Shown here one piece after another: positions 35,207 through 54,266 of a stretch of DNA of 64,000 nt. The stretch's first letter is position 1. Every line of letters starts with the position of its first letter. The notes below the pieces were generated by a model. It did not search any database and was not told the origin of the DNA. It was given only the letters and a program-made list of their open reading frames with translations. The position numbers and the translations under genes were made by a program. Source of the DNA: an archaeon (lineage in GTDB: Archaea > Nanobdellota > Nanobdellia > Pacearchaeales > GW2011-AR1); NCBI GenBank assembly GCA_018693315.1, contig JABHLR010000005.1:97049-161048 (forward strand), given 5' to 3'.

Positions 35207-35281
35207 TGGGAGAGGCAGGATTCGAACCGTTGCAACCGGGTCATTTGAGGTGACCTGCTCTGCCAATTGAGCTACTCTCCC
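35207..35281 (-). tRNA. tRNA-like gene, anticodon UCA (opal-reading, Trp-tRNA-like body); irregular, possibly a pseudo-tRNA
   Basis: Hand fold of the minus strand: acceptor GGGAGAG/CTCTCCC, D arm GCTC-AATTGGCA-GAGC, anticodon arm GGTCA-CCTCAAA-TGACC, T loop TTCGAAT. C at position 33 and a 2-nt bulge in the T stem (GCA-AC-GG vs CCTGC) are atypical. No encoded CCA. Confidence 0.55.
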
Positions 35282-39096: not shown

Positions 39097-39238
39097 TGCC
39101 TTTTCTCCTGTCTTGGGATCCTACCTGGATCCGGCCTTCCATGTGCTTTTCTCCGGACTTTGGACCGGTACATCCAAACATATGGACGTAGTGCATTAAT
39201 ACCCCAACTATGAGAGCTGTTGAGGTACCCATCTGCGG
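39097..39238 (-). repeat. ~140-bp hairpin-rich leader element, copy A
   Basis: Spans from the start codon of 38011..39096 to the stop codon of 39239..39526. Contains the GGATCC-N5-GGATCC, ACGTCCA/TGGATGT and TACCTCAAC/GTTGGGGTA stems (minus strand). Confidence 0.9.
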
Positions 39239-39526
39239 TTATTCTATGTCTATCTCTTGGGCGACTTTTCGTGTTCCACATTTGAAGAGAATTCTTGCAT
39301 CATCTTCACTGAACATCTTAATAAGCTCTTGCTTGTCTCCTGCTCCTTCGACGAATAGGAGACCTGTTTCTTCGTTTTTCCCGTCTGTGCCGAATGCTAT
39401 TTCCACGCCGGCAGGGTTGATGAAGCGGATACTACGGGCTTCACCAGGATTATCGTTCTCTTCTATTCTGATGCAATCCGCTAGGCGCATTTGTGCTGTT
39501 TCGACTGTCAGTTCGCTCGTTTTCAT
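39239..39526 (-). CDS. hypothetical protein (95 aa), paralogue of 40515..40796
   Basis: Start set at MKTSELTVE (GAAGGA upstream). The longer ORF-track N-terminus only translates the repeat. Core ADCIRIEE..NPGEARSIRFINPAGVEIAFGTDG is shared with the paralogue. Confidence 0.65.
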   Translation of the reverse strand: MKTSELTVETAQMRLADCIRIEENDNPGEARSIRFINPAGVEIAFGTDGKNEETGLLFVEGAGDKQELIKMFSEDDARILFKCGTRKVAQEIDIE

Positions 39527-39668
39527 GATTAAATCCTTCATTTTGGAATCCTTCCTGGATTCGGCCTTCCATGTGTCTTTTATCCGGACTTTGGACCGGT
39601 ACATCCAAACATATGGACGTAGTGCATTAATACCCCAACTATGAGTTGTTGAGGTACCCATCTGCGGT
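39527..39668 (-). repeat. ~140-bp leader element, copy B
   Basis: Same element. The proximal stem carries a compensatory pair change (GAATCC/GGATTC instead of GGATCC/GGATCC). Confidence 0.9.
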
Positions 39669-51273: not shown

Positions 51274-51314
51274 AGTGTAGTAATTTTTATAAGGGGTTTT
51301 GTTGTGGCTATTGG

Positions 51315-52151
51315 ATGCCATCTGTTAATAGAGATGCTTTAAAGGGAAGGGAGCTTTCTGCTGTTTGGAAGGATTATCGAGCTGGCAAAAGGAAAGGTGA
51401 TGGAGTTCATTTTAGGAATGTTTTGCTTATGTTTTATTCGCCCTATATTGACTATACAGCTGAGAGGCTTAAGTCCAGATTGCCGGATTCCATAGATGTT
51501 AATGACTTGAAGGTTGCTGGGTCATTTGGAATGATGGATGCGTTGAAGAAGTATAACTCCAAAAAGGGAGTTAGGTTTTGGACATATGCTAATCCAAAAG
51601 TGAAGGGGGCCATGATTGATGAGCTTAGGCGTTTTGATTATGTTCCAAGGTTGGCGCGAGAGAGGAAGAATCATTTTAACGAAGCGGAGACTTTGTTGAG
51701 GTTTAAGTTGGGGAGAAATCCTAGCAGGAGCGAATTAAAAAGAGAATTAACTAAGAAAGTTTATTCCACCACCGGTAAGGCTGGCTGGAAGAATGCCGAT
51801 AAGATTTTGGGGGAGGCTGATCGCTTTTTTGGTATTCATAGTTTGAGTAGGAAGAAACATGATGGGGACAATAAGGAAATTTTGGAAATTGATAGTATTA
51901 ATAATGGTTCTGATCATGTCGGTGATTTTGGAAGTTCTGATTTATTTAGGGCGATGTTGAGAGGATGTTCTCATGATGAAGAGTTGTTGTTGAGGTTGCG
52001 CTACCAGGAAGGATTTAACAATAGGGAAATTTCTGATGTTATCGGTGTTGCTCCGAGTCGGGTGAGTCAGGTTCATACTGATCTTATGAGGCGATTGAAG
52101 GGAATTGCTCTGAGACATAAAGATGCTGGGGCGATTGAAAGATTATTCTAG
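51315..52151 (+). CDS. sigma-70 family sigma factor (group 3, FliA/sigma-28-like)
   Basis: Region 2: DLKVAGSFGMMDALKKYNSKKGVRFWTYANPKVKGAMIDELRR. Region 4 HTH: EELLLRLRYQEGFNNREISDVIGVAPSRVSQVHTDLMRRLK. Confidence 0.8.
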   Translation: MPSVNRDALKGRELSAVWKDYRAGKRKGDGVHFRNVLLMFYSPYIDYTAERLKSRLPDSIDVNDLKVAGSFGMMDALKKYNSKKGVRFWTYANPKVKGAMIDELRRFDYVPRLARERKNHFNEAETLLRFKLGRNPSRSELKRELTKKVYSTTGKAGWKNADKILGEADRFFGIHSLSRKKHDGDNKEILEIDSINNGSDHVGDFGSSDLFRAMLRGCSHDEELLLRLRYQEGFNNREISDVIGVAPSRVSQVHTDLMRRLKGIALRHKDAGAIERLF

Positions 52152-52421
52152 GAGTTTGTTGTAGAGCCAGGCGAAGATGAATACGATTATGAATGCGTCG
52201 ACGAAGCTGAATATTGCGCCTAGAATTGCGCCGAGGAATGTGATTGAGTAGCCGACTGAGCCGTAGATGTCTGCGATCATTGCTGTGAACATTGGGAATG
52301 AGCCGAGGACGCCCCAGATTGATACGAGTGTTGTTAGGAATACTATTGCTGCTACGATTATCGCTGCGGCTAGTGCGAATTTCCATGCGATTAGTTTTGG
52401 GTTTTTGGTTTTCTTTTCCAT
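52143..52421 (-). CDS. small membrane protein (3 TM)
   Basis: 92 aa, almost entirely hydrophobic helices. Confidence 0.65.
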   Translation of the reverse strand: MEKKTKNPKLIAWKFALAAAIIVAAIVFLTTLVSIWGVLGSFPMFTAMIADIYGSVGYSITFLGAILGAIFSFVDAFIIVFIFAWLYNKLLE

Positions 52422-52469
52422 TTTTCTTTGTAAGACTATATTTATTATCCTCTAAGGGTCTTTAAATAT

Positions 52470-52553
52470 TTATTTGCCGCAAGTGCATGTTTTGCATTCT
52501 TTGCATCCGCCGCATGAACATTTCTCTTTGCCGCATGAACATTTCTCTTCCAT
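52470..52553 (-). CDS. Cys-rich micro-protein (27 aa), metallothionein-like
   Basis: Hand translation: MEEKCSCGKEKCSCGGCKECKTCTCGK (9 Cys in 27 residues). The DNA contains a direct repeat gccgcatgaacatttctct. Confidence 0.4.
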   Translation of the reverse strand: MEEKCSCGKEKCSCGGCKECKTCTCGK

Positions 52554-52649
52554 TGTTGTTAGAAGTGTTTTGGGGATATAAATGTGTGTTGAAACTTGTG
52601 AATGGTAAAGTTTATTATGTTGTGTTTCTTTGATTTATTGAGGAGTAAG

Positions 52650-53345
52650 ATGGTTGATGTTGAGTATACTATTGAAGTTCCTAGGCAGGCGCTTGAAGTT
52701 TTGAGAAGGGTTCATGGACCGAGTAGAGAGGAATGTCGTGCGGATGATCCTGCGTTTTTTTATAAGGCGACAACTTTTGATGGGGTTGATGGTTATTCTG
52801 CTGCTGAAATTAAGGATTTTGTGAGAAATGATTTGATTGGCTTGGTTGGCGTTGTGTTGCGACCGGATGTGCCGTTGGTTATATCGGAGGGTGAAGATAA
52901 AAGTGTTTCGATTGTTGGTCATAATTACCAGGCTTGCGGGGATCATCGAGGAGGTGGGGGTGTTCTTAGGGGCGGGGGGATTTATGTTCCGCCTCATATT
53001 GGGGCAGCGGTTCGGGGGGCTGAGCAGGATGAGGATGATAGTAATTATTATAATGTTTCTCTGGAGTTTGATAGGTGTGCGTTGCCGGCGCTTCAATATC
53101 TTGTTAATTTGACTGCTACGTTTTTTAGAAATGGTGGTAGTAATTATCCCCAGTTTAGTATGGAGCACCTTGCGGAGGAGTTGACCAATGGGAGGCCGGG
53201 AGCTCGGGAGTTTGATCTTGTTCGTAGTTTGACGGGTGTTGTCGCGGAGGGTATTCATCCGATGGGTGTGGGGGGATTTAGGAAGACTTTGTTTTTGCCG
53301 CCGAAGAGGATTGCTCTTGCTGAGTTGATACTTAGGGTAGCGTAG
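52650..53345 (+). CDS. hypothetical protein (231 aa)
   Basis: GAGGAG upstream of the ATG at 52650. No motif recognised. Locally GC-richer. Confidence 0.55.
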   Translation: MVDVEYTIEVPRQALEVLRRVHGPSREECRADDPAFFYKATTFDGVDGYSAAEIKDFVRNDLIGLVGVVLRPDVPLVISEGEDKSVSIVGHNYQACGDHRGGGGVLRGGGIYVPPHIGAAVRGAEQDEDDSNYYNVSLEFDRCALPALQYLVNLTATFFRNGGSNYPQFSMEHLAEELTNGRPGAREFDLVRSLTGVVAEGIHPMGVGGFRKTLFLPPKRIALAELILRVA

Positions 53346-53384
53346 TGTATAAATGTTTAAATAATCTGGAGGGATTTTGATTTA

Positions 53385-53654
53385 ATGAGAAGATTGCGGA
53401 ATGCTTTAATTGGGTTGTTTATTCTTGGAGTGAGTGTTACTGCTGCTAGTGGTTTTAGTGGGTATTGTACTGGATATGCGGTTGAGCAAAATAAGGCGAA
53501 GAAGGAGCTTGCTCAGAAAAGGAGTGATGTTGAGATGTATGATGAGAGGATGCGGGACGCGAGGGCGCAGCAGGAGAATACTTATGCGGTTGCTGGTTTT
53601 GCAGGGATTGCGGCAGCGGTTGGGCTTTCTGGATTTGCTATGAAGAGGGATTAG
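53385..53654 (+). CDS. small 2-TM protein
   Basis: TM - charged helix - TM architecture, the same as the next gene. Confidence 0.55.
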   Translation: MRRLRNALIGLFILGVSVTAASGFSGYCTGYAVEQNKAKKELAQKRSDVEMYDERMRDARAQQENTYAVAGFAGIAAAVGLSGFAMKRD

Positions 53655-53683
53655 GTTTAAGTAGCGTTGATCTGTGGAATTTT

Positions 53684-53968
53684 ATGGGAACTTTGCGGGA
53701 TATTGTTCGGTCGGGATTTCTGGCGGCGTGTTTTGGGTGTGCGGCCATGGGGATTGTTAGTTTGAAAGATAGAGCGGATAATTTTGCGGTGATTGAATTA
53801 ATAGCTAAGAAAAAGGCGGATGCTTTGGCGGAGAGTCGGCCTGTTGGATGGTATGATAAAATGACTGAGAATTTGGAGGATACTGATTATAGCGGGCGTT
53901 GGGCTGCGGGGTATTTTGTTGCGGCTGGTTTAGCTTTGGCTGCTAGGTATTCGATTAAGAGGAAGTAG
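53684..53968 (+). CDS. small 2-TM protein (same architecture as 53385..53654)
   Basis: TM - charged helix - TM. Tandem with the previous gene. Confidence 0.55.
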   Translation: MGTLRDIVRSGFLAACFGCAAMGIVSLKDRADNFAVIELIAKKKADALAESRPVGWYDKMTENLEDTDYSGRWAAGYFVAAGLALAARYSIKRK

Positions 53969-53970
53969 GC

Positions 53971-54189
53971 TTACCAGTCGCGTTTGCCGGCTTCGAAGAG
54001 AGCTCTGTTTCGATCTACTATCGCGTGTCTTATGACCATGCATTTTATGGTTCTATCTTTTTCGTAGGCGCAGGTTTTATCTAATCCTAAACTTTCGCAA
54101 TGCATTCCTTGGTTTTCGGTTAATTGGCGGCTGTCTGCATATGGGGTGTATTTGCATAAGTATTTTCTGGCTTGGGCTGTTTCTGTCAT
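53971..54189 (-). CDS. small Cys-containing hypothetical protein
   Basis: 72 aa ORF with 4 Cys. No motif recognised. Confidence 0.4.
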   Translation of the reverse strand: MTETAQARKYLCKYTPYADSRQLTENQGMHCESLGLDKTCAYEKDRTIKCMVIRHAIVDRNRALFEAGKRDW

Positions 54190-54266
54190 GTATAGAGTTG
54201 AGAAATGATGCTTATAAGAATTATCGTGATGGTTAAGTCTATAAATCGTTTTGGCGTCTTCTGAGA

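What the first reader, a model, noticed from the sequence alone, without database searches (positions are those of the whole stretch)
51315..52151. Bacterial sigma-70 (FliA-like) factor gene in host-like archaeal DNA
The 278-aa product shows clear region 2 (FWTYANPKVKGAMIDELRR) and region 4 HTH (REISDVIGVAPSRVSQVHTDLMRRLK) signatures of group-3 sigma factors. Archaeal transcription uses TBP/TFB, and sigma factors need a bacterial core RNAP. The gene has the AT-rich composition of the host, sits between a DEAD-box helicase and archaeal-style small genes, and is not inside the GC-rich island. It is therefore an older acquisition or a family resident in this lineage. Its presence near an island with bacterial-style signals is notable, but I cannot show any functional link.
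Basis: partly seen in the sequence, partly recalled or inferred. Interest (0 to 1): 0.6.

Follow-up and report, generated by a model that had tools for sequence, protein, structure and literature searches.

The report
Bacterial FliA-type sigma gene in archaeon
A tiny symbiont-type (DPANN) archaeon really does carry an intact, long-resident bacterial-style FliA/sigma-28 gene behind a typical archaeal promoter, but such sigma genes in these archaea are already in print and their function without a bacterial RNA polymerase remains unknown.

Summary
ORF 51315-52151 (+) encodes a 278-aa sigma-70-family protein whose best family match is FliA/WhiG (group 3). It has confidently predicted sigma2, sigma3 and sigma4 domains.

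The surrounding DNA is archaeal (aIF2-gamma, aIF5B, L10e). The 674-kb genome has a single archaeal RNA polymerase and TFB, and no FlgM. The gene is not an assembly artefact: the identical gene and neighbours were assembled on 23 contigs from four sources. It carries the host's strand-specific codon bias. Its upstream TATA box scores in the 94th percentile of host promoters.

The nearest named relatives are Planctomycetota FliA (up to 39% identity). The nearest context-verified relatives lie in related DPANN genomes, in one case in a similar gene order (a DEAD-box paralogue, sigma, then the orthologous GTPase). These copies evolve much faster than their neighbours.

Sigma-70 domains occur in about a third of genomes of the order. 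The FliA-like type is rare, and I found it in none of the ~45-60 other species of the genus sampled.

Sigma-70 genes in DPANN archaea were reported by Castelle et al. 2021, so this is a new member of a known, unexplained kind. My working explanation is a domesticated DNA-binding regulator. This is inferred, not shown.

The parts
51280..51293 (+). Host-type archaeal promoter. An A-rich BRE-like stretch is followed by the TATA box TTTATAAG, starting 29 bp before the ATG. This implies a leaderless mRNA.
   Evidence: Genome-wide, TATA-like hexamers pile up at -29 to -27 from start codons: 337 hits at those three positions for 648 genes. The PWM score of this site is 8.16. That is the 94th percentile of all genes, and 0 of 5000 random positions reach it. 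Sequence read.
51315..52151 (+). Gene for a 278-aa FliA/WhiG-like (group 3) sigma-70-family protein.
51342..51644 (+). Sigma2 domain (residues about 10-110; regions 1.2/2.1-2.4). It includes DLKVAGSFGMMDALKKYN (region 2.2-like) and RFWTYANPKVKGAMIDELRRFDYVPR (regions 2.3-2.4-like).
   Evidence: Pfam Sigma70_r2 covers residues 52-106. pLDDT is 89-98. Most invariant columns of the subfamily alignment lie here: D64 L65 G69 G72 A76 F88 G98 D102 R105 D108.
51648..51827 (+). Sigma3-like helical domain (residues 112-171). It carries a roughly 10-residue insertion relative to most bacterial FliA.
   Evidence: Helices 112-132, 138-149 and 155-171 have pLDDT 80-95. Pfam r3 was not detected. This interval is 31 residues long against a modal 21 in 290 FliA-family proteins.
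51837..51929 (+). Disordered linker (residues 175-205), at the position of region 3.2 and the sigma3-sigma4 linker.
   Evidence: pLDDT below 50 for residues 175-205.
51927..52115 (+). Sigma4 domain (residues 205-267) with the region 4.2 helix-turn-helix REISDVIGVAPSRVSQVH. Pro247 stands where nearly all relatives have Glu.
   Evidence: Pfam Sigma70_r4 covers residues 221-262 at 22.8 bits. pLDDT is 80-91. R249, Q252 and H254 are invariant, and E247 is at least 90% conserved, in the 44-sequence alignment.
51274..54266 (.). Variable interval between the conserved DEAD-box helicase gene and the conserved GTPase gene. In this species it holds the sigma gene and five small genes with no assigned function.
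   Evidence: In three other species of the genus, the same interval is 2.6-8.3 kb and holds unrelated genes: MutS-like, SGNH hydrolase-like and a 1018-aa surface protein. None of the window's interval genes is found there.

Best explanation
Shown: this is a genuine, intact gene for a bacterial-type group-3 (FliA/sigma-28-like) sigma factor, resident in the chromosome of a small DPANN archaeon (674 kb assembled). It entered the archaeal lineage by horizontal transfer, most likely from Planctomycetota-like bacteria. It belongs to a rare, patchily distributed and fast-evolving set of FliA-like genes in this archaeal family.

The gene has taken on the host's mutational strand bias. It sits behind a strong host-type TATA promoter that predicts a leaderless mRNA made by the archaeal TBP/TFB/RNA polymerase machinery.

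Inferred: the cell encodes only an archaeal RNA polymerase, no FlgM, and no excess of sigma-28-type promoters. The protein therefore cannot act as a canonical flagellar sigma factor. I think it most likely survives as a domesticated DNA-binding transcription regulator. It would use its conserved sigma4 helix-turn-helix, and possibly sigma2, to recognise a few sites in the archaeon's own genome. Its targets and its mode of action (repressor, activator or polymerase-associated) are unknown.
For: Identity:
- Family, solved-structure and fold matches all point to FliA/WhiG/SigD.

Archaeal host and real linkage:
- Archaeal translation and ribosomal genes lie on the same contig.
- The genome has one Rpo2/Rpo1 pair with the archaeal DFDGDEMNIH motif, and TFB.
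- The identical gene and neighbours occur on 23 contigs from JGI, ENA, NCBI and Logan.

Residency:
- GC is 0.41. Third-position GC skew is +0.55 and TA skew +0.44. Host + strand genes show 0.52-0.95, and the island's + strand genes about 0.

Expression signal:
- A TATA box lies at exactly the genome's modal -29 position. Its promoter score is in the 94th percentile of host genes.

Origin:
- 76 of the 80 best named genomic relatives are Planctomycetota, with up to 39% identity. The named hits agree.

Archaeal relatives:
- P0142 lies between a DEAD-box helicase gene and the orthologous GTPase gene.
- P0015, P0018, P0054 and genes in eight other genomes of the family lie among genes with orthologues in this genome.
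- They share two insertions that are rare in 290 FliA-family proteins.

Maintenance:
- Every archaeal hit is an open frame without internal stops.
- 17 columns stay invariant in the subfamily despite about 30% overall identity.
- The gene is kept at similar or identical positions across genera.

Not a canonical sigma:
- No second RNA polymerase.
- No FlgM.
- GCCGATAA and composite sigma-28 promoter patterns occur at chance level.
Against: - No expression, protein or binding data exist.
- No candidate target sites were found.
- Free sigma-28 in bacteria hides its DNA-binding surfaces (own knowledge: the Aquifex sigma-28/FlgM structure), so stand-alone DNA binding is not a given.
- The gene is dispensable at genus level. 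I found it in none of the 36 congeners searched with the protein, nor in the congeners included in the profile search. The FliA-like type is present in only about 2% of genomes of the order.
- It evolves far faster than its neighbours: 33% identity against 61% for the GTPase, and 37% against 66-79% in another pair. This could mean relaxed constraint.
- Its sigma4 scores below the Pfam cut-off, and a nearly invariant Glu of the recognition helix is replaced by Pro.
- The best-conserved residues lie in sigma2, the polymerase-docking and DNA-melting module. That fits polymerase-linked roles at least as well as a free regulator.
Confidence: 0.5

Rival explanations
1. Near-neutral passenger. The gene was acquired from bacteria and is still intact and transcribed, but it has no function in the archaeon and is slowly decaying.
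For: - The branch is very long: 1.71 substitutions per site against a median of 0.63.
- The gene diverges far faster than its neighbours.
- It is found in none of the sampled congeners and is rare in the order.
- It sits in a variable interval.
- Sigma4 and the FliA model score below their cut-offs.
- No partner, target or anti-sigma factor was found.
Against: - In a streamlined genome (674 kb assembled), an 837-bp open frame has persisted long enough to acquire the host's third-position strand bias without a single stop.
- All archaeal homologues are open frames.
- The hallmark sigma2 and sigma4 residues stay invariant at about 30% overall identity.
- The promoter is among the best 6% in the genome.
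- A copy is kept next to the orthologous GTPase gene in another lineage.
Confidence: 0.2
2. The protein works with the archaeal RNA polymerase. Sigma2 docks on the universally conserved clamp coiled-coil of Rpo1. The protein then helps or redirects initiation at a subset of promoters, beside or instead of TFB/TFE.
For: - The strongest conservation in the archaeal subfamily is in regions 2.2-2.4. In bacteria this module binds the beta-prime clamp helices and melts DNA (the role is established knowledge of sigma-70 factors).
- Sigma genes of several classes persist in a third of the genomes of the order.
- The only polymerase available in the cell is archaeal.
Against: - There is no direct evidence, and no archaeal polymerase is known to use a sigma factor.
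- No excess of sigma-28-like promoter elements was found.
- The gene is dispensable in all sampled congeners.
- An earlier check in this scan priced the same idea for a related case at 8 in 100 (e1-2566095; this is a lead, not evidence).
Confidence: 0.1
3. Cross-domain effector. The archaeon is an episymbiont of a bacterium, possibly a planctomycete. It delivers the sigma factor into the host, where the protein binds the bacterial core polymerase and redirects host transcription, as phage-encoded sigma factors do.
For: - The full sigma2-sigma3-sigma4 architecture needed for a bacterial core enzyme is retained.
- The closest bacterial relatives are concentrated in one phylum.
- Fast evolution is typical of host-interaction proteins.
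- Castelle et al. 2021 argue that some small Pacearchaeota and Woesearchaeota may be episymbionts of bacteria.
Against: - The N-terminus is hydrophilic and has no signal peptide.
- This genome has no murein transglycosylase (SLT) domain.
- No secretion or delivery genes lie next to the gene.
- No bacterial host is known for any DPANN archaeon (own knowledge).
- Affinity to a donor phylum points to the donor, not to a host.
Confidence: 0.07
4. Artefact: a bacterial fragment mis-assembled or mis-binned into an archaeal contig.
For: The product is of bacterial type, and metagenome bins can be chimeric.
Against: - Identical DNA over 12.8 kb, including archaeal ribosomal protein genes on one side and the GTPase and HsdR genes on the other, was recovered in independent assemblies.
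- The gene has host GC content, host strand bias and a host promoter.
- The best bacterial identity is only 39%.
Confidence: 0.01

Closest known systems
Sigma-70 homologues of DPANN archaea (fam00359 of Castelle et al. 2021, PMC8204110). Own knowledge, paper not held here: 'complete sigma factors in Archaea' in Rinke et al. 2013, Nature 499:431.
   Same: It is a bacterial-type sigma-70-family gene in a verified archaeal context in a small DPANN genome. No anti-sigma factor is present, TBP/TFB-type machinery is present, and the function is unknown.
   Different: - This copy is of the FliA/WhiG (group 3) type. Most sigma genes I recovered in the same order look RpoD-like: about 280 aa with region 1.2 and TRERIRQIE-type region 4.2. 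They match this protein only weakly, at 51 bits or less.
- The paper gives no promoter, synteny, rate or donor analysis in the passages I read.
Bacterial FliA / sigma-28 / SigD / WhiG (TIGR02479; PDB 6PMI, 9WSM, 1RP3, 6PFV)
   Same: The match covers the full length, with the same sigma2-sigma3-linker-sigma4 architecture. Conserved motifs include DL..G..G...A (region 2.2), F.TYA...G...D.LR (region 2.3) and SRVSQ.H (region 4.2).
   Different: - It scores below the family cut-off (159.7 against 189.6 bits).
- It has two insertions.
- Pro replaces the conserved Glu before the recognition helix.
- There is no bacterial core polymerase, no FlgM and no sigma-28 promoters in the genome.
- It is expressed from an archaeal TATA promoter.
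Planctomycetota FliA (Phycisphaerae, Pirellulales, Planctomycetales)
   Same: These are the closest named relatives: 76 of the 80 best genomic hits, at 31-39% identity over residues about 3-263. The shared SLSRK...EID motif after region 3 is visible in the alignment.
   Different: - Those genes are GC-rich (63-65%) and sit in bacterial contexts.
- The tree does not resolve the archaeal genes as a single offshoot of them.
Phage-encoded sigma factors
   Same: Both are sigma-family genes carried by something other than the bacterium whose polymerase they would serve.
   Different: The best phage matches are only 22-27% identical. No viral genes lie nearby.

Membership tests
Sigma-70 family (Pfam Sigma70_r2 and Sigma70_r4; NCBIfam TIGR02937) | Region 2 domain scoring above the curated threshold | tested here: met
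   PF04542 scores 32.3 bits against a cut-off of 24. pLDDT is 89-98 for residues 10-110.
Sigma-70 family (Pfam Sigma70_r2 and Sigma70_r4; NCBIfam TIGR02937) | Region 4 helix-turn-helix domain | tested here: inconclusive
   PF04545 scores 22.8 bits, just under the 24.1 cut-off. However, the whole-protein model TIGR02937 scores 64.3 against 42.9. The SRVSQ.H motif is present. A sigma4 fold is predicted at pLDDT 80-91 and aligns to sigma factors.
FliA/WhiG subfamily (TIGR02479, group 3 sigma factors) | Whole-protein score at or above the curated subfamily cut-off | tested here: not met
   159.7 bits against a 189.6 cut-off. It is still the best-scoring family, at E 8.7e-47.
FliA/WhiG subfamily (TIGR02479, group 3 sigma factors) | Three-domain sigma2-sigma3-sigma4 architecture without region 1.1, with closest structures being sigma-28/SigD/WhiG | tested here: met
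   Top Foldseek and sequence hits are SigD, WhiG and sigma-28.
FliA/WhiG subfamily (TIGR02479, group 3 sigma factors) | Works with a bacterial core RNA polymerase encoded in the same cell | tested here: not met
   Only one Rpb1-type and one Rpb2-type gene are present, both archaeal (DFDGDEMNIH motif; the order rpoB, rpoA, then EF-2). The assembly is 87% complete, so absence is not absolute.
FliA/WhiG subfamily (TIGR02479, group 3 sigma factors) | Cognate anti-sigma factor FlgM and a regulon with TAAA-N15-GCCGATAA-type promoters | tested here: not met
   No FlgM match even at E <= 1. GCCGATAA occurs 16 times against 11.9 +- 3.9 expected. Composite patterns occur at or below expectation.
DPANN archaeal sigma-70 homologues (Castelle et al. 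2021, fam00359) | Sigma-70-domain protein encoded in a verified DPANN archaeal context, not mis-binned | tested here: met
DPANN archaeal sigma-70 homologues (Castelle et al. 2021, fam00359) | Membership in the published protein cluster fam00359 itself | not testable with these tools
   The family's model and member list are not available here. Only the text passage was read.

The most novel reading that the evidence does not exclude
A bacterial sigma-28-type factor has been recruited as a working partner of an archaeal RNA polymerase. Sigma2 would dock on the Rpo1 clamp coiled-coil, and the protein would select or open a small set of promoters beside TBP/TFB. An equally unexcluded variant is that the protein is delivered into a bacterial (planctomycete-like) host to reprogramme the host's polymerase. 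Either would be the first functional sigma factor use by an archaeon.
Probability: 0.1. Interest if true: 0.9.

Novelty: new member of a known kind. Interest (0 to 1): 0.35.

Why it matters
Sigma factors define bacterial transcription initiation. Archaea use TBP, TFB and TFE instead. Intact sigma genes have now been seen repeatedly in DPANN archaea, which is an unexplained breach of that divide.

This case adds no new principle, but it gives a clean and well-controlled example:
- The genome's extreme strand bias shows that the gene is an old resident.
- The gene has one of the strongest archaeal promoters in the genome.
- It has a probable donor phylum (Planctomycetota).
- It has related copies in other DPANN genomes that evolve much faster than their neighbours.

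The protein is small (278 aa) and has a clear bacterial counterpart. That makes it a practical candidate for the missing experiment: does it bind DNA, an archaeal polymerase or a bacterial polymerase?

Tried and rejected
- **Contamination or chimera.** Rejected. Independent assemblies are identical, and the gene has the host's strand bias and promoter.
- **Phage origin.** Rejected. The best phage matches are 22-27% identical.
- **Link to the GC-rich island.** Not supported. No sigma-28-like promoters occur in contig C6 apart from single chance-level octamers.
- **A shared 654-aa neighbour in L050 and the window.** This is a coincidence of length. There is no similarity.
- **A conserved partner or anti-sigma gene next to archaeal FliA-like genes.** None recurs across 13 loci. 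The one exception is a roughly 600-aa gene overlapping the 400-aa sigma variants of G386 and G071.
- **Population dN/dS.** Not possible. All assemblies are identical, or differ by 4 bases in a 2.9x-coverage contig.
- **Phylogeny.** FastTree groups the query with AT-rich, archaeal-context sequences (support 0.86). IQ-TREE leaves it in an unresolved polytomy of long branches. A single archaeal clade is therefore neither shown nor excluded. Shared indels favour kinship with P0015, P0018 and P0054.
- **A degenerate second sigma copy in this genome.** None found.
- **Murein transglycosylase, as a hint of a bacterial host.** Absent.
- **Rinke et al. 2013.** The paper could not be retrieved, so I cite it from memory only.

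Full report
**Observation.**
- Pfam finds Sigma70_r2 above threshold (32.3 bits against 24) and Sigma70_r4 just below (22.8 against 24.1).
- NCBIfam ranks FliA/WhiG first (TIGR02479, 159.7 bits, E 8.7e-47, nearly full model coverage). This is below that subfamily's curated cut-off of 189.6.
- The general sigma-70 model TIGR02937 is passed (64.3 against 42.9).
- The best solved relatives are WhiG (6PFV) and sigma-28 holoenzyme chains (6PMI, 9WSM), aligned over residues 14-262.
- An AlphaFold2 model from a 44-sequence alignment has mean pLDDT 81.8. It shows a confident sigma2 (10-110), a helical sigma3 (112-171), a disordered linker (175-205) and sigma4 (205-267).
- Foldseek returns only sigma factors, led by B. 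subtilis SigD, WhiG and sigma-28.

**The host is an archaeon and the linkage is real.**
- The window encodes aIF2-gamma, aIF5B, archaeal GluRS and ribosomal protein L10e. L35Ae appears in the gene calls of identical contigs.
- The assembly is 674 kb in 8 contigs, 87% complete.
- It has exactly one Rpb2-type and one Rpb1-type gene, adjacent, followed by EF-2. The Rpo1 active site reads DFDGDEMNIH, the archaeal/eukaryotic form.
- TFB is present. FlgM is absent.
- A protein identical to this one is encoded on 23 contigs from JGI, ENA, NCBI and Logan. In four of them that I compared base by base, up to 12.8 kb around the gene is identical to the window. A chimeric assembly is excluded.

**Residency.** This genome has an extraordinary strand asymmetry. 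On the window's + strand, third codon positions are almost all G or T whichever way the gene points. Whole contigs run at a GC skew of 0.3-0.5.
- The sigma gene carries this signature: third-position GC skew +0.55 and TA skew +0.44.
- Neighbouring + strand genes show 0.52-0.95.
- The + strand genes of the GC-rich island at 26-41.5 kb show about 0.

The sigma gene has therefore been in this chromosome long enough to be remodelled by the host's mutation bias. It is older than the island, though it sits at the low end of the host range.

**Promoter.** Across 648 crudely called genes, TATA-like hexamers pile up at -29 to -27 from the ATG (337 hits at those three positions). Most mRNAs are therefore probably leaderless. 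The sigma gene has TTTATA exactly at -29 (51286). Its promoter-matrix score is 8.16, the 94th percentile of all genes, and 0 of 5000 random positions reach it. The gene is thus equipped to be transcribed as its own unit by the archaeal machinery.

**Origin and relatives.**
- No protein above 50% identity exists among 1.84 billion cluster representatives. The best hits are 36-40% identical.
- Named relatives are overwhelmingly Planctomycetota FliA. They make up 76 of the 80 best genomic loci, with up to 39% identity. The named hits agree.
- Those genes are GC-rich and sit in bacterial contexts.

Several of the nearest unnamed relatives turn out to be archaeal.
- P0015 lies on AT-rich marine contigs. 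Its small genes include a protein 78% identical to one in this genome.
- P0142 lies between a DEAD-box helicase gene (a paralogue of the window's adjacent one) and a GTPase gene 61% identical to the window's. The gene order thus resembles the window's.
- P0018 and P0054 lie beside orthologues of genes on contig C5.
- A profile of this group finds further FliA-like genes in eight other genomes of the same family. Each is embedded among orthologues of this genome's genes, at different chromosomal positions.

Part of the group shares two insertions that are rare in FliA proteins. One interval has 13 residues instead of a modal 9 between Y21 and N35. Another has 31 instead of a modal 21 in region 3. 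Trees are poorly resolved because the archaeal branches are very long: the query's is 1.71 substitutions per site against a median of 0.63. One archaeal clade is neither shown nor excluded.

**Distribution.**
- Sigma70_r2 genes occur in 103 of 301 genomes and 53 of 122 genera of the order. This agrees with Castelle et al. 2021, who report sigma-70 genes (fam00359) as prevalent in Woesearchaeota, rule out mis-binning and find no anti-sigma factors (PMC8204110).
- Most of the sigma genes I recovered in the order look RpoD-like and match this protein only weakly.
- The FliA-like type is rare. Nine of 401 genomes in the order score at least 116 bits. Six of 401 genomes in a phylum-wide sample pass E 1e-25.
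- I found it in none of the congeners sampled: 36 in the protein search, plus those in the profile search.
- In three congeners, the interval between the DEAD-box helicase and GTPase genes holds unrelated genes. The gene therefore sits in a variable slot.

**Rate.** Where neighbouring genes can be compared across lineages, the sigma genes diverge far faster.
- Window against L062: sigma 33% identical, GTPase 61%.
- G349 against G413: sigma 37% identical, flanking genes 66% and 79%.

All archaeal copies are nevertheless uninterrupted open frames. Seventeen columns stay invariant in the subfamily alignment, mostly in regions 2.2-2.4 plus R249 in region 4.2. The window's copy is among the more derived. 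Its sigma4 scores under threshold, and Pro stands where at least 90% of relatives have Glu, just before the recognition helix.

**Mechanism.** A canonical role is excluded as far as sequence can tell.
- There is no bacterial core enzyme and no FlgM.
- There is no excess of GCCGATAA (16 observed against 11.9 +- 3.9 expected) or of composite -35/-10 patterns.
- There is no such site in the island.
- No conserved partner gene accompanies the archaeal FliA-like genes.

I commit, at about even odds, to a domesticated DNA-binding regulator expressed by the archaeal machinery. The steps from 'intact and promoter-equipped' to 'binds DNA and regulates' are inference.

The rivals are:
- a near-neutral passenger (0.2);
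- a real partner of the archaeal polymerase through the conserved clamp coiled-coil (0.1);
- an effector acting on a bacterial host's polymerase (0.07). This last idea is made thinkable by the suggestion that some small Pacearchaeota may be episymbionts of bacteria. Here it lacks any signal peptide, delivery gene or murein hydrolase.

**Novelty.** Sigma-70 homologues in DPANN archaea are in print (also Rinke et al. 2013, from memory). Earlier notes of this scan describe several similar cases with the same open question. This is a new, FliA-type member of that known kind. It is documented with promoter, amelioration, gene-order, rate and donor evidence.

Noticed in passing
whole window 1-64000, and all contigs of the genome: Extreme strand asymmetry. 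GC skew is 0.3-0.5 and TA skew 0.1-0.3 over whole contigs. Third codon positions are almost all G or T on one DNA strand, whichever way the gene points. The sign flips on contig C3 near 30 kb, a candidate replication origin or terminus. This is unusually strong for any prokaryote, and more so for an archaeon.
   Followed up: partly
genome-wide; example at window 51286: TATA-like hexamers peak sharply at -29 to -27 from start codons, with an A-rich stretch at -35 to -32. Nearly all mRNAs of this organism therefore appear to be leaderless.
   Followed up: partly
G000 contig C4:45688-49110 (outside the window): The largest RNA polymerase subunit is a single 1140-aa ORF. In most archaea (own knowledge) it is split into the A' and A'' genes, and their usual combined length is greater.
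   Followed up: no
window 51274-54266, and L052, L055, L056: The interval between the DEAD-box helicase and GTPase genes is a variable slot in this genus. It is 2.6-8.3 kb and holds different cargo in each species: a MutS-like ATPase, an SGNH hydrolase-like gene, or a 1018-aa surface protein. Here it holds sigma plus small membrane proteins.
   Followed up: partly
window 53385-53968: Two adjacent genes (89 and 94 aa) encode proteins of the same layout: two hydrophobic helices flanking a charged helical loop. The adjacent 247-aa product (52602-53345) has no Pfam match.
   Followed up: no
L018, L031, L072, L088, L091 and other loci of related genomes: Sigma genes in this archaeal order often come as tandem pairs, for example G127:C22, G041:C64, G263:C8, G342:C64 and G289:C8. 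Most recovered copies look RpoD-like, about 280 aa, with region 1.2 but no region 1.1.
   Followed up: partly
L092:5489-8582 and L093:7306-10258: In two genomes (G386 and G071) the FliA-like sigma has an N-terminal extension (about 400 aa in total). It overlaps a conserved 591-633-aa gene (43% identical between the two genomes). This may be a two-gene operon.
   Followed up: no
window 35207-35281 and 39153-39666: A tRNA-like gene with a UCA anticodon and two type-P5 twister ribozymes lie inside the GC-rich island. Other findings of this scan already cover them.
   Followed up: no
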